Virus genome (UHGV): UHGV-0301147
Length of the DNA: 42,879 nt
From: a virus
Direction: 5' to 3' (one strand)
Shown: positions 22,103-37,092 of the stretch, in pieces
How the letters are laid out: the number at the start of each line of letters is the position of its first letter
Position numbering within the stretch: the stretch's first letter is position 1
Translations under genes and position numbers: made by a program
Notes under the pieces: generated by a model
What the model saw: only the letters and a program-made list of their open reading frames with translations
Database searches by the model: none
What the model was told of the DNA's origin: nothing

Positions 22103-22452
22103 TTCTTAGAAATTTGGCAATATACCAAATTAGCGTTAAATATGGCCTATTTTGTTCGGTTTTGCAAGCATTATACGCAAACGTCGTCTAAATGGTTTTG
22201 ATAATGATGCAAAGTTGCAAGAAGTGCCACTTCATCAAGTGCTCTCACCGCCTCTTTCATTCCTGCCCAGTGCGGGGAGTATGTTTCGCACCAGGTGGAA
22301 CGAGAAACAGACAACATTCCAGCTAGCGCAGATCCGGCCATCTCCTTAAAATCCTCGCGTTTATTTGATGCTGCGACCGCCTGCACGGACAACCACACCA
22401 ACGAAAGCAGGCGCTTAACTACTTTTCTCTGAGTTGACGCGGGGATGTTTCC

Positions 22453-22480
22453 TTTATAGCGACTCCAGACAGCCTAACAA
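22453..22480 (-). promoter_or_regulatory. pR'-like late promoter candidate immediately after the Q-like gene
   Basis: Minus strand TTGTTA - 16 nt - TATAAA overlapping the stop of the 22474-22842 gene. Confidence 0.35.
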
Positions 22481-22842
22481 ATAGCTGTTTGGTGTTTGAA
22501 TGCCAGGTTACCACCGTAGCAATAACGCAACCACGCTTGCTGACTTGCATCCAGCGAGTTCACAGAACGCCGCCAGGATGAATCAGCAAATTCAAAATCA
22601 CTCATCGGCGGCGCGGGGCGACGTCTGCTGAAACTTTCCAGAGCGTAAACTGGCGTAACCAGAGCATCAACGGTCCGGTCCTCCAGCTGCACACGGTGAA
22701 TATGTTTGCGTGGGTATGCGTTTTTGTCTGCCGGTGGGTGCTCACACAATGCTTCCAGTTGCCCCTTAGAACCACCAGACAAATCCCGCAATGCAGCGCG
22801 CAGTTTTATGCGGGTATATTCCAATAAATACTCGTTACTCAT
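22474..22842 (-). CDS. Putative late-gene antiterminator (Q-like); assignment is positional
   Basis: 122-aa ORF between the YbcO-like gene and the promoter/terminator/holin region; lacks the DxD motif of RusA. Confidence 0.4.
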   Translation of the reverse strand: MSNEYLLEYTRIKLRAALRDLSGGSKGQLEALCEHPPADKNAYPRKHIHRVQLEDRTVDALVTPVYALESFSRRRPAPPMSDFEFADSSWRRSVNSLDASQQAWLRYCYGGNLAFKHQTAIC

Positions 22843-23135
22843 CAGATAAACTCCTCATCGCGCCAGATAGCCAGTGTTCTGAAAACTCCCTCAGCGTGCA
22901 TCAACAACAATGAGTCGTGCCCGTAATCCGTTTTTGTACGTCCGTCGATGGCATCGTGACACGCACTACAGGCGATAGCGCCCTGCATATCGTGAGGTTT
23001 GATGGCTGTGCCGCACGTTCCGGCGAGACGATAATGAGCCAGTACGCTGGTTTCAGGATTGTGATTGCACACACCGGGGATACGCACAGTACAAGCGCGA
23101 CCACGTGCAGCTTTTCTCAGGTCGATTTTTTTCAT
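22842..23135 (-). CDS. DUF1364 family protein (YbcO-like putative nuclease)
   Basis: 97-aa ORF with the conserved Cys pattern RGR-C-VRIPGVCN-NPETSVLAH ... ACSACHD recalled for YbcO. Confidence 0.8.
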   Translation of the reverse strand: MKKIDLRKAARGRACTVRIPGVCNHNPETSVLAHYRLAGTCGTAIKPHDMQGAIACSACHDAIDGRTKTDYGHDSLLLMHAEGVFRTLAIWRDEEFI

Positions 23136-23728
23136 GATGTGTAATCCAGCAGCTGCGCGGCAGCATTTTCAGCGGCCTCCTGAGAGGCAAACGTGCGGAA
23201 CAAAATATAATTCCACAGCACATCTAAAACGGCTGAATACAGTTGACCGAACTCAAGATCGTCCATCGCAGCAAACGAGATTGAACGAGGTACGCGCATC
23301 AAACTGCCGTCTGGCATCTGATGAACGTCATAAAACCCAGCTTCCATAATCGCCCATGCGCGAAACGCCTCGAACGACTTCACCGCACTGATATTCCCCG
23401 CGCGCTTTTCCGACTCATCGAGAAGATACTGATCAGCCAGCTCTGCCATGACATCACCGTGTCCACCGTAATACGCCAGTAACTTAACGTAGCCGTGAAC
23501 CAGTTCGCGCTCCGCAGGAGAAATAGCCCCTCCGGACGGATGCCAGTAATCAAAGCCCAGGTTGAGAAGTGAGAAAAATTTACGGTGAAACGCGGGATTG
23601 CGTGCCTGTTTGAAATCTGCATACACAACAGCACCTGGTTTGACTCGTTCAGTCAACCAGCGTTGCGTGTCTGGTGTCGCGGGTATTAGCGAACCGCCGG
23701 ATACCCTGATAAATGAATGCTGCGCCAT
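23132..23728 (-). CDS. DUF1367 family protein (YbcN-like)
   Basis: 198-aa ORF with ADFKQ-RNP-FHRKFF-LL-LGF-YW motif, upstream of and overlapping the YbcO-like gene. Confidence 0.75.
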   Translation of the reverse strand: MAQHSFIRVSGGSLIPATPDTQRWLTERVKPGAVVYADFKQARNPAFHRKFFSLLNLGFDYWHPSGGAISPAERELVHGYVKLLAYYGGHGDVMAELADQYLLDESEKRAGNISAVKSFEAFRAWAIMEAGFYDVHQMPDGSLMRVPRSISFAAMDDLEFGQLYSAVLDVLWNYILFRTFASQEAAENAAAQLLDYTS

Positions 23729-23805
23729 GGTTAACTCCAGGTGGCGCGGCAGTGTTCAGAAAATGGTGCCGGGTGTTCAATCCAGCACCGATATTATACC
23801 GTGTT

Positions 23806-23985
23806 TTACGCGTCAGGGGGTGTAATAGTATATCCAGCTATTTCTGCCAACTCGAGAAACGCCATCAGGCTGGCAATCCGCTCATCATCGGTCAGAACAC
23901 GCACACCAACGATGTGTCCGTCCTTACGCTTGATAACAGCCCGGCATGTTTCCGGTAGTTCGCCTATAGATTCTTGAATATTCAT
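23806..23985 (-). CDS. Small hypothetical protein (~59 aa) preceded by an SOS box; candidate SOS-inducible antirepressor or division inhibitor
   Basis: ORF below the supplied 60-aa cut-off (MNIQESIGELPETCRAVIKRKDGH...), strong SD AGGGGGAAG, CTGT-N8-ACAG box 22 bp upstream; stop coordinate approximate. Confidence 0.45.
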   Translation of the reverse strand: MNIQESIGELPETCRAVIKRKDGHIVGVRVLTDDERIASLMAFLELAEIAGYTITPPDA

Positions 23986-24005
23986 GTCTTCCCCCTAACG
24001 CCATT

Positions 24006-24025
24006 GCCTGTACATTTATACAGTA
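24006..24025. promoter_or_regulatory. LexA (SOS) box candidate overlapping a sigma70-like promoter
   Basis: gcCTGTacatttatACAGta, close to the CTGT-N8-ACAG consensus; overlaps a putative -10 (TATAAA) with ATGACA -35 on the minus strand. Confidence 0.6.
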
Positions 24026-24136
24026 TTTTATGGCATTTGTCATAACGCTAGATACAATGAGGGAATAATGAACAATTATATTCACGTCGTGAATTTTATT
24101 AAACGGTTTTATAGGGGATTAAACCGTTTATGGTCA

Positions 24137-24768
24137 TTATTTATCACTCCTGTAAATTGAAATTAACCATTTTCTAATCGTCGACGCTGCAGGTGGGTCA
24201 GAGTATTTCGCCACAAAAATACCGGATATGTATTGCACACCACGCGATAATGGCGCTGTCGGGTTTTCAGTAAAAAAACGATCAGCCAGTTCAATGGCTT
24301 CGCTTTTTAATCTGTGCTGTGGCCGTCCTCCGCCCTTCGTGCCAAGGTAGCGCGCCAGTTGTTTGAAACGGTAAGCAATGATTAACGGTCGCATCATCAT
24401 ATTGAAAAAATCGCGGGCATCGTTGTCAGCGCCTTGCGCTATCAACAGTGCAAAAAACAGATACGGGATTGTGTACACTTCAGGGGATATACGAACTCGT
24501 TTACAGGTTGGTGGAGCCAAATTAATAAGTAAGTCAGCCAGCGAATTCCCCTTTTCTCCACGTTTGTAATAGCGATACAGCGGCCCGATATCGAGTTTAC
24601 TCACATCGATTTCAGGGTGCTCGGCAACGGCTGTACGTATCTCTTCTGCCAGAGCGTCAAATATTGCTCCGGTCCGCTCAAGATAGAGCCTCCGGGTCGA
24701 ACCGCGATCATCCAACGCCCGTAACATATCTAACCGGCTAACGAAAGTTTCAGGCCAGCCCTCATAGA
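24137..24768 (-). CDS. Hypothetical protein
   Basis: ORF with good SD (GAGGT) before the Met at 24768; the longer annotated start at 24814 lacks a ribosome-binding site; no family recognised. Confidence 0.5.
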
Positions 24769-24845
24769 AGGTTTTCATAATTACCTCGAATAATAAAAAC
24801 TGCACTATTTGCACAATTTATTATTCGTTTTCACATCGCAGGGTT

Positions 24846-24875
24846 CTATAAAAAAGAAAACCCGCCGAAGCGGGT
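24846..24875 (-). terminator. Rho-independent terminator after the 24897-25175 gene
   Basis: Minus strand aacccgc-ttcg-gcgggtt hairpin followed by TTCTTTTTTAT. Confidence 0.6.
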
Positions 24876-24896
24876 TAGTTAATAAGTTACACCTGG

Positions 24897-25175
24897 TTAT
24901 GAGGCCATGCCGTAGGCTTTTTTATGCATCCCATGGTCATATCCCATGTTATATGCTTCAAAAGCATCTTTATGACGTACATGCCCGGCCTGGCTTTCGG
25001 GTAAATCACCTAAAACAGAGTCATCAACCGCACGCGGAACGCCAATTAATGCGTGCCACATACCTTTATCATAGGCACATCCACAACATTTGTGCCGCCC
25101 AACGTTCCCCTGATTTGCGGAAAGAACATCAAACATACTGTCGTGACGATGTGACTTTTTACAGATGTGTTTCAT
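24897..25175 (-). CDS. Small Cys/His-rich hypothetical protein
   Basis: 92-aa ORF followed by its own terminator; start may be the internal Met; no family recognised. Confidence 0.45.
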   Translation of the reverse strand: MKHICKKSHRHDSMFDVLSANQGNVGRHKCCGCAYDKGMWHALIGVPRAVDDSVLGDLPESQAGHVRHKDAFEAYNMGYDHGMHKKAYGMAS

Positions 25176-25273: not shown

Positions 25274-25308
25274 TTTTTGTATGGCCCTGACAGCTCCAAC
25301 TGTCAGGG
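25274..25308 (+). terminator. Rho-independent terminator (plus strand) with no protein gene upstream on that strand
   Basis: 10-bp stem gccctgacag / ctgtcagggc, 6-nt loop, followed by TTTCCCTTT. Confidence 0.6.
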
Positions 25309-25395
25309 CTTTCCCTTTGATGCGATTCTAAAATCTTCGCAACCTCCAGATCCTATCCAGGACCAAGAAAAACTTCAATGAAAAGATCAAGTTAG

Positions 25396-25415
25396 ATCTG
25401 TATTTTTTTACAGAT
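25396..25415. promoter_or_regulatory. Second LexA-box-like site
   Basis: atCTGTatttttttACAGat fits CTGT-N8-ACAG with an AT-only centre; in the 567-bp intergenic region between the 92-aa gene and the ImmA-like gene. Confidence 0.45.
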
Positions 25416-25651
25416 GTAATAAATCACACATGTAATAGCCTTCCCTTCCTGTGCTCATCCAGGCGCTTGTGGCATCCATTTTTTTCAGAAACATATGGAC
25501 GCCTAAAAAACCACTAATCTCATGATTATCCTGTATGTTTTTACTGGAAACATTGAGACATCCACAATGCAGCGTAAAAAGCAAGCAATTCACAAGATTT
25601 TAAAGTGATTTATCTGGAAGACTTTACTACTAACAGTTAATATCGTACCAG

Positions 25652-25742: not shown

Positions 25743-26231
25743 ATGGCTACCAACCCAAGAGAGCACGCCCGGCGAGTGCTGGACACGTTCTGGTGCGGGC
25801 GTGGTTTCCCTGTTGATCCAGCGAAAATTGCTCACGACATGGGATTAGATGTTTTTATTACCGATCTTCCTGGGAAAGTTTCTGGCGCACTGATTAAACA
25901 AAAAGATCAAGATCCAGCGATCTTTCTAAACAGTGATGACAACAAAGTTCGTCAACGTTTTTCATGTGGGCATGAGTTGGGGCATTACATCGCCCGGCAA
26001 GCATCGCATAGCGATGAATATGAGTACGTTGATTTACGTGGCGAAACCGCAAGCGCCGGAACGCATCCTGATGAAATTTTTGCGAACAAGTTCGCAGCAG
26101 AACTTCTGATGCCGGTAGATGAGGTCAGAAAACTGCACGCTGACGGCCAACCAAGTTATATAATGGCGCATCATTTTGGCGTATCTGACGATGCGATGAC
26201 TTATCGTTTAAAGAACTTGAGGTTGGGGTAA
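25743..26231 (+). CDS. ImmA/IrrE family zinc metallopeptidase
   Basis: 162-aa ORF with HEXXH motif (CGHELGHYIARQ) and strong SD GGAGGAG. Confidence 0.85.
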   Translation: MATNPREHARRVLDTFWCGRGFPVDPAKIAHDMGLDVFITDLPGKVSGALIKQKDQDPAIFLNSDDNKVRQRFSCGHELGHYIARQASHSDEYEYVDLRGETASAGTHPDEIFANKFAAELLMPVDEVRKLHADGQPSYIMAHHFGVSDDAMTYRLKNLRLG

Positions 26232-26240
26232 CGCTTTAGA

Positions 26241-26846
26241 ATGCCATCGGATGACGATTTTAACAGCCGTTTCAAACAGGAAGTTGCACGCCGACTGAAG
26301 GATTCCCTCAACCTACACCGTCAGTTAGCAGAAGAGGTTGAGCCGGAGGAGGATGAAACTCCGGTTCAGTCTCCTGACGAAACTTCACCTCAGACAAAGG
26401 TTTCGCACGCTCCAAAAAAACCGTCTGCCCGTATTCACGGAATAGCCAGAAAAAGAGCTGCCGAAGCTCACAAAATGGCTGTAGCTGCGTCAATCAAAAG
26501 AATTCCAATTCCTACCCCCTCTCAACAAGTCACCCGTACTGAGAGTAAAATCTTGACCGAGTTCACATCTGTGAAACAGGTGAGTTCACTTGATACCGAG
26601 CATGAGCGCAAACAACTCAACAACAAAGATTTTGAAGCTGAAATCGCTCTAAAAAAACGCTACGGAAAATGGTTCCTGATAATCCTTGCTTGCCAACTTC
26701 TGATAATGAATGGTGTATTTATTGCCGACGGCGCAGGTAAGCTGGAATTTGAAGATTTAACGCTACAGTTGTACATGGGCGGTACTTTGACAGAGGTATT
26801 CGGCCTCGTGCTGGTCGTGACAAAATACCTTTTTAAACGCAAGTAA
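26241..26846 (+). CDS. Hypothetical membrane protein (acidic N-terminal region, two C-terminal transmembrane helices), co-operonic with the ImmA-like gene
   Basis: 201-aa ORF starting 9 bp after the ImmA-like stop; hydrophobic segments KWFLIILACQLLIMNGVFIA and GGTLTEVFGLVLVVTKYLF. Confidence 0.6.
   Translation: MPSDDDFNSRFKQEVARRLKDSLNLHRQLAEEVEPEEDETPVQSPDETSPQTKVSHAPKKPSARIHGIARKRAAEAHKMAVAASIKRIPIPTPSQQVTRTESKILTEFTSVKQVSSLDTEHERKQLNNKDFEAEIALKKRYGKWFLIILACQLLIMNGVFIADGAGKLEFEDLTLQLYMGGTLTEVFGLVLVVTKYLFKRK
26775..26846 (+). repeat. Direct repeat copy A (last 24 codons of the membrane-protein gene)
   Basis: 72 bp matching 30377-30448 with 6 mismatches. Confidence 0.8.
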
Positions 26847-26955: not shown

Positions 26956-27360
26956 TTATCGTTGTACAATTCGTCCGTTGGGATCCAGCCACATCCCATC
27001 AGAAAGATACACCATTTCCCTGGGTTCATCCGTTACCTGCAGGTCATGGTAAATTGAAGTAAGCTCATTTTTAGGTGAAGGAGTGATATCTTCGCTTCCA
27101 AAGATCATATCTTGGTATTGTGCCCAATTTTGGCGAATTTCGAAATACATATCAACATCATAATCCTGCCCTCTTAGTTCATCATCTGAAGATATATTCA
27201 ATGTCTTTTTGAGACCGATGATGTTAAAGATCCACTTCTTACCACCTTTAATGAAGTATGCCCCAGTATATGCCTCTTCATCTGGTACAGCCTCATAACC
27301 TAAATTTAATGCTAATTGTATCTGTTCTGCTAATGTAAAAGACTCTTTCCATCCACTCAT
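26956..27360 (-). CDS. Hypothetical acidic protein
   Basis: 134-aa ORF in the low-GC cassette; no family recognised. Confidence 0.5.
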   Translation of the reverse strand: MSGWKESFTLAEQIQLALNLGYEAVPDEEAYTGAYFIKGGKKWIFNIIGLKKTLNISSDDELRGQDYDVDMYFEIRQNWAQYQDMIFGSEDITPSPKNELTSIYHDLQVTDEPREMVYLSDGMWLDPNGRIVQR

Positions 27361-27680
27361 AGCTTATTACCTACCTGTGAACCTGTTTGCTGCATGAAAA
27401 ACAATATAATAAAGCGTTATTGAAGACTATGAACCAAGTAAATTTAATCAAAGACGTTTATAACGCATTTGCCTAAACAACTTCCACCGTATGATCCGCT
27501 TCTCGCTCTCAGCAGACCTTTATCTGCAGGTGCTTGTCTGCTGTGTTCCAGAAGCAGATATTATTATATAACTCTTTAACCCATGTATGACAAAATATTC
27601 TTGGAGCTTATTAAAACTTCATACGTCTAAATCACCTCTTCATTAGTGAATCAATAATTGTATAGTTAAAATGTAACACT

Positions 27681-28346
27681 TTATTTTTTATGATTAACTT
27701 GCTTTGCTAAAGAGCTATAAATCATATCAACCAAAACATATTTTTCGCATTCCCAAGGTTCACTAATAGATGGGTTTACTAAGTCTGGCTTCCCCCCCAT
27801 TAGTGTATGAACATGCGAATAAATACCTATTCTTTCTGCGAGTTGCATTATTTTTATTTGATGTTCTGGTGGGAGCATTTTGTTTTTAAACCATGTTGTA
27901 AATATATGCTTGGTAAGTTCCTTAGTACAAACAAACCATTCACCTTGACGTCTTTCGTTGCTAAATTTTTCATGAAGATAATTTTCTTTTTCTGAACCAC
28001 CAGGTTCCAAAGCGTGTAATATTAATTGACCAAATGCACCTGTTTGCAGGTTAGACAACCTTTTTAGCACATTATTGGAACGCCCTATTTTCACATAAAG
28101 TCCCGAGTAAGGGTTATTTTTATCTGAAGAACCGGCCCAAGTATCAGGCACTTGTAAAATATAATAAATACTACTTACTTTCCCACTCGATACATTATTT
28201 GCCCAAATCTGCCATTCTTCCATCCAGCTTTTTGCATCTTCTCTCGTGTCAAAGGCATGACTTGTATAGTAAAATTCACCAGTATCCAAGAACATATCGA
28301 AAACATATTTGCCATTCTCTATAATTCTTAAGTTGTCGGCTTTCAT
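27681..28346 (-). CDS. T5orf172 (MUG113, GIY-YIG-like) domain protein; putative defence-type nuclease
   Basis: 221-aa ORF containing LYVKIGRSNNVLKRLSNLQTG ... ENYLHEKFSNERRQGEWF, matching the T5orf172 signature (YKIG-T ... R ... L ... E ... LH ... F ... R ... GEWF); AT-rich. Confidence 0.75.
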   Translation of the reverse strand: MKADNLRIIENGKYVFDMFLDTGEFYYTSHAFDTREDAKSWMEEWQIWANNVSSGKVSSIYYILQVPDTWAGSSDKNNPYSGLYVKIGRSNNVLKRLSNLQTGAFGQLILHALEPGGSEKENYLHEKFSNERRQGEWFVCTKELTKHIFTTWFKNKMLPPEHQIKIMQLAERIGIYSHVHTLMGGKPDLVNPSISEPWECEKYVLVDMIYSSLAKQVNHKK

Positions 28347-30472: not shown

Positions 30473-31309
30473 TCAAAATGCTGAATCAGCAACAGATACA
30501 GCCGACTTTTTCCCCATTACCATCAATTTATCCAGTGTCATACTTCGCAGATTGTCGCTGTGGATCACCAGATACCCTGCCCGCTCAGCGATCTCTTTGA
30601 AAGCGTCAAAGGTCATCAGATGTTCGCCTTTGGCAACATGGCGCATCCTTGTCACTTTTCCATTTTTGATAGTGGTGATAAAAGAAAAATCCGGAATGGT
30701 TGGCTGATTTTCATCGAGTAGCAGGCAGTGGATGTATTCAATCGCCTCTAACATTTGCGTCTGTGACAGTTGTTCTATGTGAGAGACGGCGAAGCGTTGA
30801 TGAATCATGGTGTAGGCATCGGGATACATCATGCCTTTCTTACCGACCAGCATATTAACGGCATCACGTAAGGGAGTACGGTCATCGGTAGTTGTACTCC
30901 GCCTCTCTGGGCGCTGGCTAAAATAACAATCTTCAAGCTTTTCGAAAACTTCCCAAGCCTGTTCTGTTTCCAGCATTTTGGCATGGCGAGCTGCGCCGCG
31001 TTCTGTCCAGAGAATGAGGGATCGGGTATGTTTAGCAACTGACTGACTATCTGTCAGTCTGTTTTTGAAGTCGCGTAATTCATTACCTTCCAGCTTAAAA
31101 AAATGCTTTCCTACGACAAATCTGGCGATGTTGCGCTTGAAGTTTTGCTGGATACCATTTACTTCCGTGCCATACAAACTGGCAAGCAATTCAGTAGTGA
31201 TGACGGGAAGTTGGTTATGATGTAGCGGAGAAAGGGATTCCGCAGATATTTGGATTGTCATCGCAGTGGCCTCACTTAGTGTTTTTTTCATCACCACCAG
31301 CGACGCCAA
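30473..31309 (-). CDS. Phage antirepressor-like regulatory protein (Ant/Rha-type N-terminal domain)
   Basis: 278-aa ORF with antirepressor-like N-terminal region; true start probably an internal Met. Confidence 0.55.
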   Translation of the reverse strand: MASLVVMKKTLSEATAMTIQISAESLSPLHHNQLPVITTELLASLYGTEVNGIQQNFKRNIARFVVGKHFFKLEGNELRDFKNRLTDSQSVAKHTRSLILWTERGAARHAKMLETEQAWEVFEKLEDCYFSQRPERRSTTTDDRTPLRDAVNMLVGKKGMMYPDAYTMIHQRFAVSHIEQLSQTQMLEAIEYIHCLLLDENQPTIPDFSFITTIKNGKVTRMRHVAKGEHLMTFDAFKEIAERAGYLVIHSDNLRSMTLDKLMVMGKKSAVSVADSAF

Positions 31310-31533
31310 TCATCTGGTGGTGAACTGTGCAGGGTTGGCGTAACCGGCTAAGTGAACCCGGCGCTTCCGCAGAAGCCCCCACACAGCCCACCATAATGCG
31401 AATGTGGCCGTGCCTAACACATAAAAAAACCGCTAACGCGGCTATGCGTCACTTAGATATCCGGGACGCCAATCCCGGCAACCGATTTTGCGGCTGCGCG
31501 GAAACTATAGCCCCGGGCTTTTTCTAAGTCAAT

Positions 31534-31755
31534 TCAATCAACTTCAAACCTCCGGTGTTCACATTCCATACACTCAACGGGAACATCATCGCGATGCAAG
31601 TCCACATATCCGACCCGCTTATACAACTCAATAATGTCCGGTAACGTGACCAGATGTTTTTCCGGTTCCAACACCTCAGCCCTGGTTACTTTGTAATCTG
31701 AAATATAGAGCACTATCCGCCCGTTCCGTGGTAACTCCAGTTTATCGCCAAACAT
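31534..31755 (-). CDS. Hypothetical protein (nin-region-like)
   Basis: 73-aa ORF colinear with the minus-strand early-right operon. Confidence 0.4.
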   Translation of the reverse strand: MFGDKLELPRNGRIVLYISDYKVTRAEVLEPEKHLVTLPDIIELYKRVGYVDLHRDDVPVECMECEHRRFEVD

Positions 31756-36353: not shown

Positions 36354-36412
36354 AGCGTCTCCTGTCGCTAAAAATTGATTACGCTTAATCAGATGTAATA
36401 AGCCGCCTTTTG

Positions 36413-36610
36413 CTAAGCTTTTTCATGTTTTGGAACATCGTAAAAAGTCGGGTCATATTTCAGTGCTCCATTAGTGATATGGTCGAGTCGAGCTGCTCGC
36501 TTTTCAGGAACTGTTGCCCCCCAACGAGTAACCGCCACTTGTGATATACCCAGCACCTTGGCTGTGGCTGTCTTTGAACCAAAAAAACTAATAACCGTCT
36601 CTGTTTTCAT
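36413..36610 (-). CDS. Cro-like HTH regulator (YdaS/DicC-like)
   Basis: 65-aa ORF divergent from the repressor gene. Confidence 0.7.
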   Translation of the reverse strand: MKTETVISFFGSKTATAKVLGISQVAVTRWGATVPEKRAARLDHITNGALKYDPTFYDVPKHEKA

Positions 36611-36678
36611 AATTCCTCCGCGTAACTTTTGTTAGCAACACAAATACTAACGAAAGTTATGTCAAGTTAACTTATATT
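36611..36678. promoter_or_regulatory. Divergent promoter/operator region of the immunity switch
   Basis: 68-bp AT-rich intergenic region between the Cro-like and repressor genes, containing AAGTTA-N8-TAACTT and a TTAG...CTAA dyad. Confidence 0.5.
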
Positions 36679-37092
36679 ATGAGGATGAAAAATTTGATGC
36701 TTAGCGACCGTTTATCTCAAAGACGCAAACAGCTTGGTCTAACCCAACAACAGCTTGCTGATATGGTTGGAAGATCGAGTGTGAGCGTTTTTAAATGGGA
36801 AAGCGGACAAAATGAACCAAAGGGCCAGAACTTGTTGGCTTTGGCCAATGCACTCAAGTGTTCTGCCACATGGCTGCTTTTTGGTGACGAAGACCAGGCG
36901 CCAACTCCGGTAGACGAATTACCAACAGAGCTGGATTCACGTCAAAAAAGATTGTTAGAGTTATTTGATTCATTACCCGAGTCAGAAAAAGAAAAGCAAC
37001 TAATTGAATTAGAAGATAAAGTTGAAAACTTTAATCGTTTATTTGAAGAGTTACTGGTTACCAGAAAGAAACTAACCCCCACCAAAAAATAA
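36679..37092 (+). CDS. CI-like prophage repressor, XRE-family HTH only (no S24 autopeptidase domain)
   Basis: 137-aa ORF with HTH LTQQQLADMVGRSSVSVFKWESG; too short for a LexA-like cleavage domain; start may be the Met at 36697. Confidence 0.8.
   Translation: MRMKNLMLSDRLSQRRKQLGLTQQQLADMVGRSSVSVFKWESGQNEPKGQNLLALANALKCSATWLLFGDEDQAPTPVDELPTELDSRQKRLLELFDSLPESEKEKQLIELEDKVENFNRLFEELLVTRKKLTPTKK

What the first reader, a model, noticed from the sequence alone, without database searches (positions are those of the whole stretch)
23806..24025. SOS box controlling a small ORF in a prophage whose repressor cannot autocleave
gcCTGTacatttatACAGta overlaps a sigma70-like promoter 22 bp upstream of a ~59-aa ORF with a strong SD. 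The CI-like repressor has only an HTH domain and no S24 peptidase domain, so induction presumably needs a trans-acting factor. A LexA-repressed small antirepressor (as in phage 186 Tum or Gifsy-type systems) fits; a division inhibitor is an alternative.
Basis: partly seen in the sequence, partly recalled or inferred. Interest (0 to 1): 0.6.

Follow-up and report, generated by a model that had tools for sequence, protein, structure and literature searches.

The report
SOS-controlled small prophage antirepressor gene
A near-consensus LexA binding site sits on the promoter of a 59-residue gene that belongs to the Gifsy/Fels-1/Qin family of small antirepressors (GfoA, FsoA, Rem), so this E. coli prophage most likely couples DNA damage to induction in the way already described for Salmonella Gifsy phages.

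Summary
The 20-mer TACTGTATAAATGTACAGGC (24006-24025, minus strand) is the best LexA site in the window. It overlaps the -10 of an ATGACA-17-TATAAA promoter and ends 20 bp before the ATG of a 59-aa ORF (23806-23985, minus strand).

The ORF matches phrog_340 (E 1.6e-20). So do two antirepressors shown experimentally, Fels-1 FsoA and Qin Rem, and a near-identical relative of a third, Gifsy-1 GfoA. The ORF lies just upstream of the irsA/DUF1367 homologue, as gftA and gfoA do in Gifsy phages, but there is no dinI gene.

The LexA box is kept 18-22 bp before the start codon in relatives down to about 32-37% protein identity. The prophage repressor is HTH-only and 52% identical to DicA.

Caveats:
- The window holds two more copies of the same module: a 73-aa ORF, and the C-terminus of an ORF6N antirepressor behind isrK/C4 RNAs.
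- The identical 59-aa protein is paired with two repressors only 33% identical to each other in different genomes, so its target here is inferred.
- Q carries an internal stop in this strain.

Verdict: new member of a known kind, of modest interest.

The parts
24006..24025 (-). LexA (SOS) box TACTGTATAAATGTACAGGC; the CTGT-N8-ACAG core is at 24008-24023
   Evidence: It is the best site in the window (approximate HI 6.4). CTGT and ACAG are invariant in the promoter alignment of relatives, except in the 2-bp-deletion variant. A box is kept 18-22 bp before the start codon in distant homologues.
24015..24043 (-). Sigma-70-like promoter: -35 ATGACA (24038-24043), 17-nt spacer, -10 TATAAA (24015-24020). 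The -10 lies inside the LexA box.
   Evidence: Read. TTATGACA is invariant. The composite pattern is found in 11 related loci. The promoter scan did not list it because the -10 lacks T at position 6.
23990..23996 (-). Shine-Dalgarno AGGGGGA, 4 nt before the ATG
   Evidence: The GGGGGA motif is conserved.
23806..23985 (-). 59-aa ORF (identical to WP_001025459.1, annotated 'hypothetical'): a small antirepressor of the GfoA/FsoA/Rem family
   Evidence: phrog_340 E 1.6e-20. A family HMM built without this protein gives E 1.4e-25. BLASTP against FsoA: 41% over 39 aa, E 3e-8. dN/dS about 0.19 against the 75%-identical variants. AlphaFold2 pLDDT 82.
23765..23789 (-). 8-bp hairpin followed by AUUUUCU, between the small ORF and DUF1367. 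It may be a weak terminator or attenuator.
   Evidence: The fold is not better than shuffles (z 0.12), so this is only a possibility.
23132..23728 (-). DUF1367 gene, homologue of Gifsy-2 STM1020 (the 'irsA homologue' that follows gftA)
   Evidence: and Pfam PF07105.
22171..23135 (-). DUF1364/YbcO (22842-23135) and antiterminator Q (22171-22842; internal stop in this strain)
   Evidence: 'internal stop'; the open frame is only 22474-22842. Q is intact in relatives.
24068..24130 (-). Two hairpins between the upstream 213-aa gene and the promoter (24100-24130 and 24068-24085). They may insulate or terminate, as in the Gifsy loci.
   Evidence: z -3.3, 1 of 200 shuffles folds as well. Lemire 2011 notes terminator-like palindromes before the Gifsy LexA boxes.
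36679..37092 (+). Prophage repressor, HTH-only, DicA/GfoR/GtgR type: the presumed target
   Evidence: HTH_3 is the only Pfam hit above its curated cut-off and there is no S24 hit. 52% identical to DicA, E 2e-48. 31% identical to Gifsy-2 GtgR, E 2e-11.
36413..36610 (-). Cro-like gene, divergent from the repressor gene
31534..31755 (-). Second copy of the family: a 73-aa ORF in the early rightward operon, with no LexA box
   Evidence: phrog_340 E 3.5e-21. Family HMM E 7.6e-11. Annotated as WP_000466604.1 in NZ_CP022393 but not annotated in NZ_CP098214.
31313..31510 (-). isrK, C4 antisense RNA and c4 a1b1 target elements (P1 immI / Gifsy-1 isrK-like control region)
   Evidence: Rfam matches above gathering score.
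30473..31309 (-). ORF6N-type large antirepressor. Its residues 211-254 are a third copy of the GfoA/Rem module.
   Evidence: Pfam ORF6N. phrog_4792 'anti-repressor' E 2.5e-163, and phrog_340 E 3e-12 on residues 213-254. Family HMM E 2.4e-11.

Best explanation
The 59-aa ORF encodes a small antirepressor of the GfoA/GfhA/FsoA/Rem family, transcribed from a promoter that host LexA occludes.

In an undamaged lysogen, LexA sits on the box that covers the -10 element and the gene is silent. After DNA damage, RecA-stimulated LexA cleavage frees the promoter and the protein accumulates. It binds the HTH-only DicA-type repressor, which has no S24 domain and cannot cleave itself, and takes it off its operators. 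Early transcription then starts.

**Shown here:** the box, the promoter overlap, family membership, synteny with the Gifsy locus, conservation of the box in relatives, and the repressor type.

**Inferred by homology:** LexA binding, repressor binding, and that the repressor encoded in this window is the target.

Transcripts from this promoter may also read into DUF1367, YbcO and Q. In this strain Q carries an internal stop, so late gene expression is probably impaired.
For: 1. **The site.** It is the best LexA match in the window, HI about 6.4, reached in 1 of 200 simulated windows. It overlaps the -10 and ends 20 bp from the ATG. That geometry matches the Gifsy dinI boxes, which lie 19 bp from their ATG (PMC8072944), and phage 186 p95-tum.

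2. **The family.** phrog_340 is matched by this protein (1.6e-20), by FsoA (1.1e-26), by the GfoA-type protein of SEN34 (7.6e-21) and by Rem (4.4e-21).
 - The identities of FsoA and GfoA were fixed from the primer sequences in Table S1 of PMC3121763.
 - A profile search of 1.8 billion representative proteins gave 38 hits. One of them, P0020, looks FsoA-like by eye (E 8e-6).
 - Relatives carry faint precomputed hits to Pfam PF27490 'Rem'.

3. **Function of family members.** GfoA, GftA and FsoA bind and inactivate Gifsy repressors (PMC3121763). Rem derepresses DicA-controlled dicBp 165-fold (PMC10448788).

4. **Synteny.** Gifsy-2, SEN34 and mEp237 have LexA box, dinI, small antirepressor, then the irsA/DUF1367 homologue. 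Here the order is LexA box, small ORF, DUF1367, YbcO, Q.

5. **Comparative evidence.** A good LexA box (HI 1.4-4.5) lies 18-22 bp before the start codon in E. coli variants of 75-76% identity whose boxes differ in sequence. The same holds in a Raoultella prophage and a metagenomic contig, whose proteins are 32% identical to this one in the full alignment (37-46% in local alignments). Their upstream DNA shows no evident similarity to the E. coli sequence by eye.

6. **The repressor.** It is HTH-only and 52% identical to DicA, the repressor that Rem antagonises.

7. **Conservation within the prophage group.** The LexA-controlled copy is the only copy of the module present in all six prophages of this group that I examined over their full early regions. 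The other two copies, and ImmA, are missing from some.

8. **A real gene.** dN/dS is about 0.19.
Against: - No binding or expression data exist for this locus.
- The HI matrix comes from recalled sites, so its absolute values are approximate.
- The identical protein is found in 439 of 5,426 complete E. coli genomes, but this window's immunity region is in only 12.
- In the one majority-class genome examined (strain p11A), the same protein is paired with a repressor only 33% identical to this one. Either its specificity is broad, or the pairing in this window is not the evolved one.
- Two other copies of the module and an ImmA/CapP-like protease in the window could contribute to induction.
- A lineage with a 2-bp deletion in the box spacer keeps its repressor and lysis genes. 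That is unexpected if an unrepressed antirepressor were always lethal.
- Q is a pseudogene in this strain.
Confidence: 0.75

Rival explanations
1. One of the other two copies of the module is the real inducer of this prophage: the 73-aa ORF at 31534-31755, or the ORF6N antirepressor behind isrK/C4. On this view the LexA-controlled 59-aa protein is redundant, or acts mainly in trans on other DicA-type prophages in the cell.
For: - All three carry the same module.
- The ORF6N protein matches phrog_4792 'anti-repressor' at E 2.5e-163 and sits behind isrK/C4 RNAs. That is the arrangement which activates the AnrP antirepressor in Gifsy-1 (PMC4825925).
- FsoA shows that family members can act on foreign repressors without being needed for their own phage.
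- The same 59-aa protein occurs with heteroimmune repressors.
Against: - Neither of the other copies has a LexA site, so neither explains SOS input.
- The 73-aa ORF lies inside the repressed early operon, so it can only act after derepression.
- Both copies are absent from the P0006-type prophages (L022, L027), which keep the LexA-controlled copy.
Confidence: 0.12
2. The LexA-controlled promoter matters mainly because it transcribes the downstream DUF1367-YbcO-Q genes. SOS would then switch on the late antiterminator directly, and the small ORF would be a leader or accessory.
For: All four genes are on the same strand with short gaps, and no strong terminator lies between the small ORF and DUF1367. 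The Gifsy LexA operon also includes irsA.
Against: - In Gifsy-2, gftA alone is sufficient for induction, and non-polar irsA or dinI deletions had no effect.
- The small ORF is under purifying selection and belongs to a protein family with shown antirepressor activity.
- In the Erwiniaceae relative, the small ORF directly precedes a Q-like gene without any LexA box.
Confidence: 0.06
3. Induction runs through the ImmA/IrrE (CapP-like) metalloprotease at 25743-26231, which cleaves the HTH-only repressor after DNA damage, as ImmA does with ImmR and CapP with CapH.
For: Peptidase_M78 E 1.4e-17. PADLOC capP E 1.6e-25. Two weak LexA-like sites (HI 10.8 and 11.1) lie in its upstream intergenic region.
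Against: - The gene is about 10.5 kb from the repressor gene and is not beside any HTH gene.
- It lies in a variable region that holds IS elements in relatives, and it is absent from the P0006-type prophages.
- The weak sites are at chance level: 83 of 200 simulated windows have a site at least as good.
Confidence: 0.05
4. The small protein is an SOS-induced host-directed factor (a division inhibitor or a RecA modulator like DinI) and not an antirepressor.
For: SOS operons of related phages carry dinI. Rem expression causes filamentation, though through DicA, DicB and DicF.
Against: There was no Pfam match at all, so no DinI-like or division-inhibitor family. SulA, Kil and DicB were not compared directly. 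Family membership with three antirepressors is strong.
Confidence: 0.02

Closest known systems
GfoA/GfhA of Salmonella Gifsy-1/Gifsy-3, and the GfoA-type proteins of phages SEN34 and mEp237 (Lemire et al. 2011, PMC3121763)
   Same: - Same protein family (phrog_340).
- Small size.
- LexA-repressed promoter in the nin region.
- Gene immediately upstream of the irsA/DUF1367 homologue.
- Cognate repressor is a short HTH-only protein.
- Similar C-terminus: GYTITPPDA here, GYRVTPPSD there.
   Different: [quoted passage not shown]
- ATG start instead of UUG or GUG.
- 59 aa against about 82 aa.
- 29% identity in the family alignment.
- The host phage has P2-like myovirus tail genes.
FsoA of Salmonella prophage Fels-1
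   Same: Same family. It is the closest of the tested proteins by pairwise comparison: 41% over 39 aa, E 3e-8.
   Different: fsoA lies in the leftward early operon under the phage's own cleavable repressor and has no LexA box. The same arrangement is seen in the Stx phages, ASU11 and Klebsiella phage KPP5665-2.
Rem of the E. coli K-12 cryptic prophage Qin, antirepressor of DicA (PMC10448788)
   Same: - Same PHROG (E 4.4e-21).
- Same nin-region position upstream of the Q homologue.
- Its target DicA is 52% identical to this window's repressor.
   Different: - Rem is 83 aa with an extra central segment.
- The direct profile comparison with this protein is weak (hhalign E 0.003).
- No LexA box lies upstream of rem (best HI 18).
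- The signal that induces Rem is unknown, according to the paper.
GftA of Gifsy-2
   Same: Same position, between dinI and irsA, and same LexA control. It aligns with the family.
   Different: It falls in a different PHROG (phrog_4847, E 1.3e-45) and only marginally matches phrog_340 (E 0.23). It is 19% identical to this protein.
Tum of coliphage 186
   Same: Same logic and the same promoter geometry: the LexA box covers the -10 of p95 and ends about 18 bp before the start codon. The product inhibits CI DNA binding.
   Different: No detectable sequence relationship (hhalign E 0.17). Tum is 146 aa with a DinI-like C-terminal half, and phage 186 is a P2-like phage with a different repressor type.
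AnrP/IsrK of Gifsy-1 and the P1 immI (c4-ant) module
   Same: The window also carries this second kind of antirepressor control: isrK/C4 RNAs followed by an ORF6N antirepressor.
   Different: That module lies outside the finding's coordinates and has no LexA input. I have not seen it reported that the C-terminus of the ORF6N protein is a GfoA/Rem-like module, but I did not search for this systematically.

Membership tests
GfoA/GfhA/FsoA/Rem small antirepressors (phrog_340; Pfam PF27490 'Rem') | Sequence homology to the experimentally characterised members | tested here: met
   phrog_340 E 1.6e-20, the same profile that FsoA, the GfoA-type protein and Rem match. BLASTP against FsoA E 3e-8. Family HMM built without the query gives E 1.4e-25.
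GfoA/GfhA/FsoA/Rem small antirepressors (phrog_340; Pfam PF27490 'Rem') | Match to the curated Pfam model PF27490 | tested here: inconclusive
   The local Pfam copy appears to lack this model. No Pfam hit was found for the query, FsoA, the GfoA-type protein, GftA or relatives. Only 'faint' precomputed PF27490 hits exist on relatives P0027, P0036 and P0041.
GfoA/GfhA/FsoA/Rem small antirepressors (phrog_340; Pfam PF27490 'Rem') | Small single-domain protein of about 55-85 aa | tested here: met
   59 aa. The AlphaFold2 model is one compact unit: a short helix, a beta-hairpin at 16-30 and a helix at 40-49, pLDDT 82.
GfoA/GfhA/FsoA/Rem small antirepressors (phrog_340; Pfam PF27490 'Rem') | The prophage encodes a short, non-cleavable HTH-only repressor of the GfoR/GtgR/DicA type | tested here: met
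   137 aa. HTH_3 is the only Pfam hit above its curated cut-off and there is no S24 hit. 52% identical to DicA, 31% to GtgR.
GfoA/GfhA/FsoA/Rem small antirepressors (phrog_340; Pfam PF27490 'Rem') | The protein binds the repressor and releases it from DNA | not testable with these tools
   This needs pull-down, EMSA or reporter assays. The structure tool folds single chains only.
Gifsy-type LexA-controlled antirepressor locus | A LexA box on the promoter of the antirepressor transcription unit | tested here: met
   The box covers the -10. It is conserved in relatives. LexA binding itself was not tested.
Gifsy-type LexA-controlled antirepressor locus | Operon order dinI, antirepressor, irsA homologue | tested here: not met
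   The irsA/DUF1367 homologue follows the ORF. No gene was annotated as DinI anywhere in the prophage, and the box directly precedes the small ORF.
Gifsy-type LexA-controlled antirepressor locus | Location in the nin region between the replication genes and Q, outside the immunity region | tested here: met
   The ORF is about 12.7 kb from the repressor gene, upstream of DUF1367, YbcO and Q.
Tum (phage 186) antirepressors | Sequence homology to Tum, including its DinI-like C-terminal half | tested here: not met
   hhalign of the family profile against Tum gives E 0.17, probability 0.4%.
ImmR/ImmA or CapH/CapP protease-controlled repressors (considered for the prophage switch) | The protease gene lies next to its HTH repressor substrate gene | tested here: not met
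   The ImmA/CapP-like gene at 25743-26231 has no neighbouring HTH gene. It is absent from related prophages that keep the LexA-controlled ORF.

The most novel reading that the evidence does not exclude
The GfoA/Rem module could be a general binding domain for DicA/GfoR-type repressors that recognises their conserved C-terminal LLxLFxxLPESEK region and not the immunity-specific HTH.

This prophage would then wire three copies of one module to three inputs:
- LexA (SOS) for the 59-aa ORF;
- the early operon itself, as feed-forward, for the 73-aa ORF;
- an isrK/C4 RNA gate for the ORF6N fusion.

Because the 59-aa protein is paired with heteroimmune repressors in different genomes, it could also act in trans on other DicA-type repressors in the same cell. 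One such target is Qin DicA, which would make DicB/DicF-mediated division arrest SOS-dependent in strains that carry this prophage. About 8% of complete E. coli genomes do.
Probability: 0.2. Interest if true: 0.6.

Novelty: new member of a known kind. Interest (0 to 1): 0.33.

Why it matters
- It gives a function to a protein annotated as hypothetical. WP_001025459.1 and its variants are present in about 8% of complete E. coli genomes, and phrog_340 is still labelled 'unknown function'.
- It shows that the Gifsy mode of SOS induction, a LexA-controlled small antirepressor acting on a non-cleavable repressor, operates without dinI in a widespread E. coli myovirus-type prophage.
- Intact relatives of the Qin DicA/Rem pair have an explicit SOS input. 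The paper that described Rem reported its inducing signal as unknown.
- The mechanism itself is established, so the gain is in annotation and comparison, not in concept.

Tried and rejected
1. **Antirepressor and repressor co-variation.** The first four genomes suggested that antirepressor variants track immunity type. This was rejected. The identical 59-aa protein occurs with a repressor only 33% identical to this one in strain p11A. That same repressor protein (WP_000853106.1) occurs with the 76%-identical antirepressor variant. The small ORF is in 439 genomes at >=95% identity, while this window's immunity region is in 12.

2. **Structure.** The AlphaFold2 model is confident (pLDDT 82). Foldseek against the PDB and BFVD gave nothing significant: best E 4.8 and 0.12. 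The PDB sequence search gave nothing.

3. **Pfam.** No hit for the query or for any characterised family member.

5. **Second CTGT-N8-ACAG (25398-25413) and a third weak site (25529-25548).** HI about 11, which is chance level. They are not clearly associated with a promoter.

6. **Tum homology.** Rejected.

7. **Literature on phage vB_EcoM-705R4.** Nothing useful.

8. **Terminator between the ORF and DUF1367.** The hairpin is no better than shuffles.
Full report
**What the window is**

The 2 kb around the finding is 100% identical to a prophage in E. coli Z0117EC0036 (NZ_CP098214). It is 97% identical to part of phage vB_EcoM-705R4. The prophage sits next to the tRNA-Leu/Cys/Gly cluster by pgsA-uvrC. 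It combines P2-like tail genes and lambda-like head and packaging genes with a lambdoid early region. The early region runs leftward on the minus strand: cro, ydaT, replication genes, small nin-like genes, a variable accessory region, DUF1367, YbcO, Q, then lysis genes. About 8% of complete E. coli genomes (448 of 5,426) carry the 2-kb region around the finding.

**Checking the observation**

- CTGT-N8-ACAG occurs at 24008-24023. There are two matches in the window against 0.44 expected.
- On the minus strand the 20-mer is TACTGTATAAATGTACAGGC.
- I scored every 20-mer with a heterology index built from 24 E. coli operators recalled from memory, so absolute values are approximate. This site is the best in the window at HI 6.4. 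The next best is 10.8, and the training sites score 0.8-10.2.
- Only 1 of 200 first-order Markov simulations of the window reached HI 6.41 or better.
- The box contains a TATAAA -10 hexamer (24015-24020). It lies 17 nt downstream of ATGACA (24038-24043).
- The box ends 20 bp before the ATG at 23985, and AGGGGGA precedes the ATG by 4 nt.
- The promoter scan did not list this promoter because the -10 lacks T at position 6. TTATGACA, CTGT and ACAG are nevertheless invariant in an alignment of six related promoters whose other positions vary. The composite pattern is present in 11 of 13 related loci.
- The ORF is 23806-23985, 59 aa.
- The repressor (36679-37092) is 137 aa. HTH_3 is its only Pfam hit above the curated cut-off and there is no S24 hit.

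**What the ORF is**

Word-based homology search found only close E. coli relatives. A profile search of 1.8 billion representative proteins found 38 small proteins that share the motif LPxxGRvv...nG.v...R.L.ddEHiasL..F.ElA..AGY.

Lemire et al. 2011 (PMC3121763) showed three things about Gifsy prophages:
- their repressors are short and not cleaved;
- small antirepressors (GftA, GfoA, GfhA) encoded outside the immunity region inactivate them;
- the antirepressor genes lie in a LexA-controlled dinI-antirepressor-irsA operon.

Fels-1 FsoA is a homologue expressed from the phage's own leftward operon.

The primer sequences in their Table S1 fix the identities of these proteins. FsoA is Fels-1 STM0898.2n: it starts MNSQQMM and ends EAGIRFEEISNVG. 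GfoA starts MSNSALQK and ends RRLGYRVTPPSDI. The second primer matches near-identical genes in phages SEN34 and mEp237.

An independent profile library ties the family together. phrog_340 is matched by:
- the window protein (E 1.6e-20);
- FsoA (1.1e-26);
- the SEN34 GfoA-type protein (7.6e-21);
- E. coli K-12 Rem (4.4e-21).

Rem was shown in 2023 to relieve DicA repression (PMC10448788). GftA falls in a neighbouring PHROG but aligns with the family. Pairwise BLASTP against FsoA gives 41% identity over 39 residues, E 3e-8. Between the E. coli variants dN/dS is about 0.19, so this is a real protein-coding gene.

**Context**

Gifsy-2 STM1020, the 'irsA homologue' that follows gftA, is a clear homologue of the DUF1367 gene that follows the window ORF. 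SEN34 and mEp237 have a terminator, then a LexA box, dinI, the small ORF, DUF1367, and further downstream Q. The window has the same order without dinI. As a result the box is 20 bp from the antirepressor start instead of about 365 bp.

The repressor is 52% identical over its full length to DicA (E 2e-48) and 31% identical to Gifsy-2 GtgR. That places it in the family which Lemire et al. proposed to be antirepressor-controlled.

**Comparative test of the LexA box**

I fetched loci for family members and scanned the 500 bp upstream of each.

| Locus | Identity to this protein | LexA box | HI | Box end to start codon |
|---|---|---|---|---|
| E. coli, P0004 type | 75% | TGCTGTATAAATACACAGGA | 4.5 | 18 bp |
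| E. coli, P0006 type | 76% | TACTGTATATATATACAGTG | 1.4 | 18 bp |
| E. coli, P0006 type (L014) | 76% | TACTGTACATATATACAGGG | 4.2 | 18 bp |
| Phage 705R4 | 100% | ACCTGTATATTTATACAGTA | 3.3 | not measured |
| Raoultella prophage | 32% (37% local) | TACTGTGATTATATACAGTT | 3.0 | 22 bp |
| Metagenomic contig (L020) | 32% (46% local) | TACTGTAAATATATACAGTT | 2.0 | 20 bp |

In the Raoultella and metagenomic loci the gene again directly precedes DUF1367.

Members from Yersinia and an Erwiniaceae genome have no box. Neither do the FsoA-type genes that sit in leftward operons beside CI-type repressor genes (the Fels-1-like locus L018 shows an S24 domain), nor K-12 rem. The family therefore comes in LexA-wired and repressor-wired versions, and this gene is in the LexA-wired class. 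That a good box persists at a fixed distance while its own sequence and the flanking DNA change is the strongest in silico evidence that it functions.

**Mechanism**

The most likely mechanism has three steps.
- LexA occludes the -10 in undamaged cells.
- The SOS response removes LexA, and the 59-aa protein accumulates.
- The protein binds the DicA-type repressor and releases it from its operators.

These steps are inferred from homologues. Nothing here measures binding. Promoter geometry matches the Gifsy dinI boxes, which lie 19 bp from the ATG with published HI 3.9-5.3 (PMC8072944). It also matches phage 186 p95-tum. Tum itself shows no sequence relationship to this family.

**Complications found**

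1. *Three copies of the module.* A family HMM built without the query hits three ORFs among 1,039 six-frame segments of the window: the 59-aa ORF (1.4e-25), residues 211-252 of the ORF6N protein at 30473-31309 (2.4e-11), and a 73-aa ORF at 31534-31755 (7.6e-11). PHROG profiles confirm all of this. The 73-aa ORF matches phrog_340 at 3.5e-21. The ORF6N protein matches phrog_4792 'anti-repressor' at 2.5e-163, and its C-terminus matches phrog_340 at 3e-12.

2. *A second control module.* Rfam places isrK, C4 antisense RNA and c4 a1b1 targets at 31313-31510, between the 73-aa ORF and the ORF6N gene. This is the P1 immI / Gifsy-1 isrK-anrP type of control (PMC4825925). Neither extra copy has a LexA site. 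Both are absent from the P0006-type prophages, which keep the LexA-controlled copy.

3. *No co-variation with the repressor.* I first thought that antirepressor variants track repressor type. That is wrong. The identical 59-aa protein is in 439 genomes at >=95% identity, but this window's cro-repressor region is in only 12. In strain p11A the protein is paired with WP_000853106.1, a repressor 33% identical to this one. That same repressor accompanies the 76%-identical antirepressor variant elsewhere. The repressors do share a conserved C-terminal LLxLFxxLPESEK segment. Either specificity is broad, as for GfoA acting on both GfoR and GfhR, or the pairing in this window is a recent recombinant.

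4. *A protease.* An ImmA/IrrE protease (PADLOC capP, E 1.6e-25) lies at 25743-26231 without an adjacent HTH gene and in a variable region.

5. *Q is broken here.* Q has an internal stop in this strain only.

6. *A broken box in one lineage.* One lineage has a 2-bp deletion in the box spacer.

**Structure**

AlphaFold2 with a 34-sequence alignment gives a confident small fold: helix 3-8, hairpin 16-30, helix 40-49, pLDDT 82. It has no significant match among solved or viral predicted structures.

**Verdict**

This is a new, unannotated member of the known GfoA/FsoA/Rem antirepressor family, in the LexA-wired arrangement of Gifsy phages but without dinI. It sits in a common E. coli prophage whose repressor resembles DicA. 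The mechanism is not new. The multi-copy module and the pairing with heteroimmune repressors are the only features that might repay experiments.

Noticed in passing
window 31534-31755 (-): A 73-aa ORF of the same GfoA/FsoA/Rem family (phrog_340 E 3.5e-21). It has a good SD, lies inside the early rightward operon and has no LexA box. It is not annotated in the otherwise identical RefSeq record NZ_CP098214, but it is annotated as WP_000466604.1 in NZ_CP022393.
   Followed up: partly
window 30473-31309 (-), residues 211-254: The ORF6N 'anti-repressor' (phrog_4792, E 2.5e-163) ends in a GfoA/Rem-like module (phrog_340 E 3e-12). This suggests that the small antirepressors correspond to the repressor-binding end of the large Ant-type proteins.
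   Followed up: partly
window 31313-31510 (-): Rfam matches above gathering score to isrK (80 bits), C4 antisense RNA (74 bits) and c4 a1b1 targets (53 bits), directly upstream of the ORF6N antirepressor. This is a P1 immI / Gifsy-1 isrK-anrP type RNA-gated antirepressor module.
   Followed up: partly
window 25743-26846 (+): An ImmA/IrrE metalloprotease (PADLOC capP E 1.6e-25) is followed by a 201-aa protein of unknown function. The C-terminus of that protein looks hydrophobic by eye, which I did not test. There is no adjacent HTH partner. It may be a DNA-damage-sensing or defence module. It is absent from some related prophages.
   Followed up: partly
window 25396-25415 and 25529-25548: Two weak LexA-like sites (approximate HI 11.1 and 10.8) lie 133 bp apart in the 567-bp intergenic region upstream of the ImmA gene. 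They are conserved in locus L009. Each is at chance level on its own (83 of 200 simulated windows have a site as good).
   Followed up: partly
window 25283-25310 (+): A strong terminator-like hairpin (11 pairs, 7 of them G-C, then a T-rich tail) on the plus strand, with no evident gene ending there. It may be the 3' end of a small RNA.
   Followed up: no
window 22171-22842 (-): The antiterminator Q gene has an internal stop in this strain (the open frame is only 22474-22842). It is intact in phage 705R4 and in all the other relatives examined. This copy of the prophage is probably defective for late gene expression.
   Followed up: partly
L012 2463-2482; L027 (ETEC1738, NZ_CP122768): One lineage has a 2-bp deletion in the TA-repeat spacer of the LexA box (CTGT-N6-ACAG). 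The look-up grouped 15 further places with L012, though their sequences were not inspected. The ETEC1738 prophage keeps its repressor, antirepressor, Q and lysis genes but has a split terminase. How an unrepressed antirepressor promoter is tolerated is unexplained.
   Followed up: partly
window 23806-24040 compared with 36400-37092: The small ORF with its box is in 439 complete E. coli genomes at >=95% identity. This window's cro-repressor region is in only 12. In the one majority-class genome examined (p11A), the same antirepressor is paired with a repressor that is 33% identical to this one.
   Followed up: yes
window 23896-24040 (-): There is a mosaic patch. Against the 75%-identical variant, 28 of 33 nucleotide differences fall in codons 1-30 and the promoter and 5' leader also diverge. 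Against the 76%-identical variant, the DUF1367 gene just downstream is about 98% identical.
   Followed up: partly
window about 27300-27700, compared with L001: The otherwise identical RefSeq record NZ_CP098214 carries an IS1A insertion that the window lacks (the coordinate offset changes by 777 bp). The window therefore comes from a sibling genome.
   Followed up: no
window 24137-24778 (-) and 24897-25175 (-): Two conserved phage genes of unknown function (phrog_5215 and phrog_3941) lie between the ImmA region and the LexA-controlled promoter. The second is rich in Cys and His and is followed by a good terminator (24859-24876).
   Followed up: no
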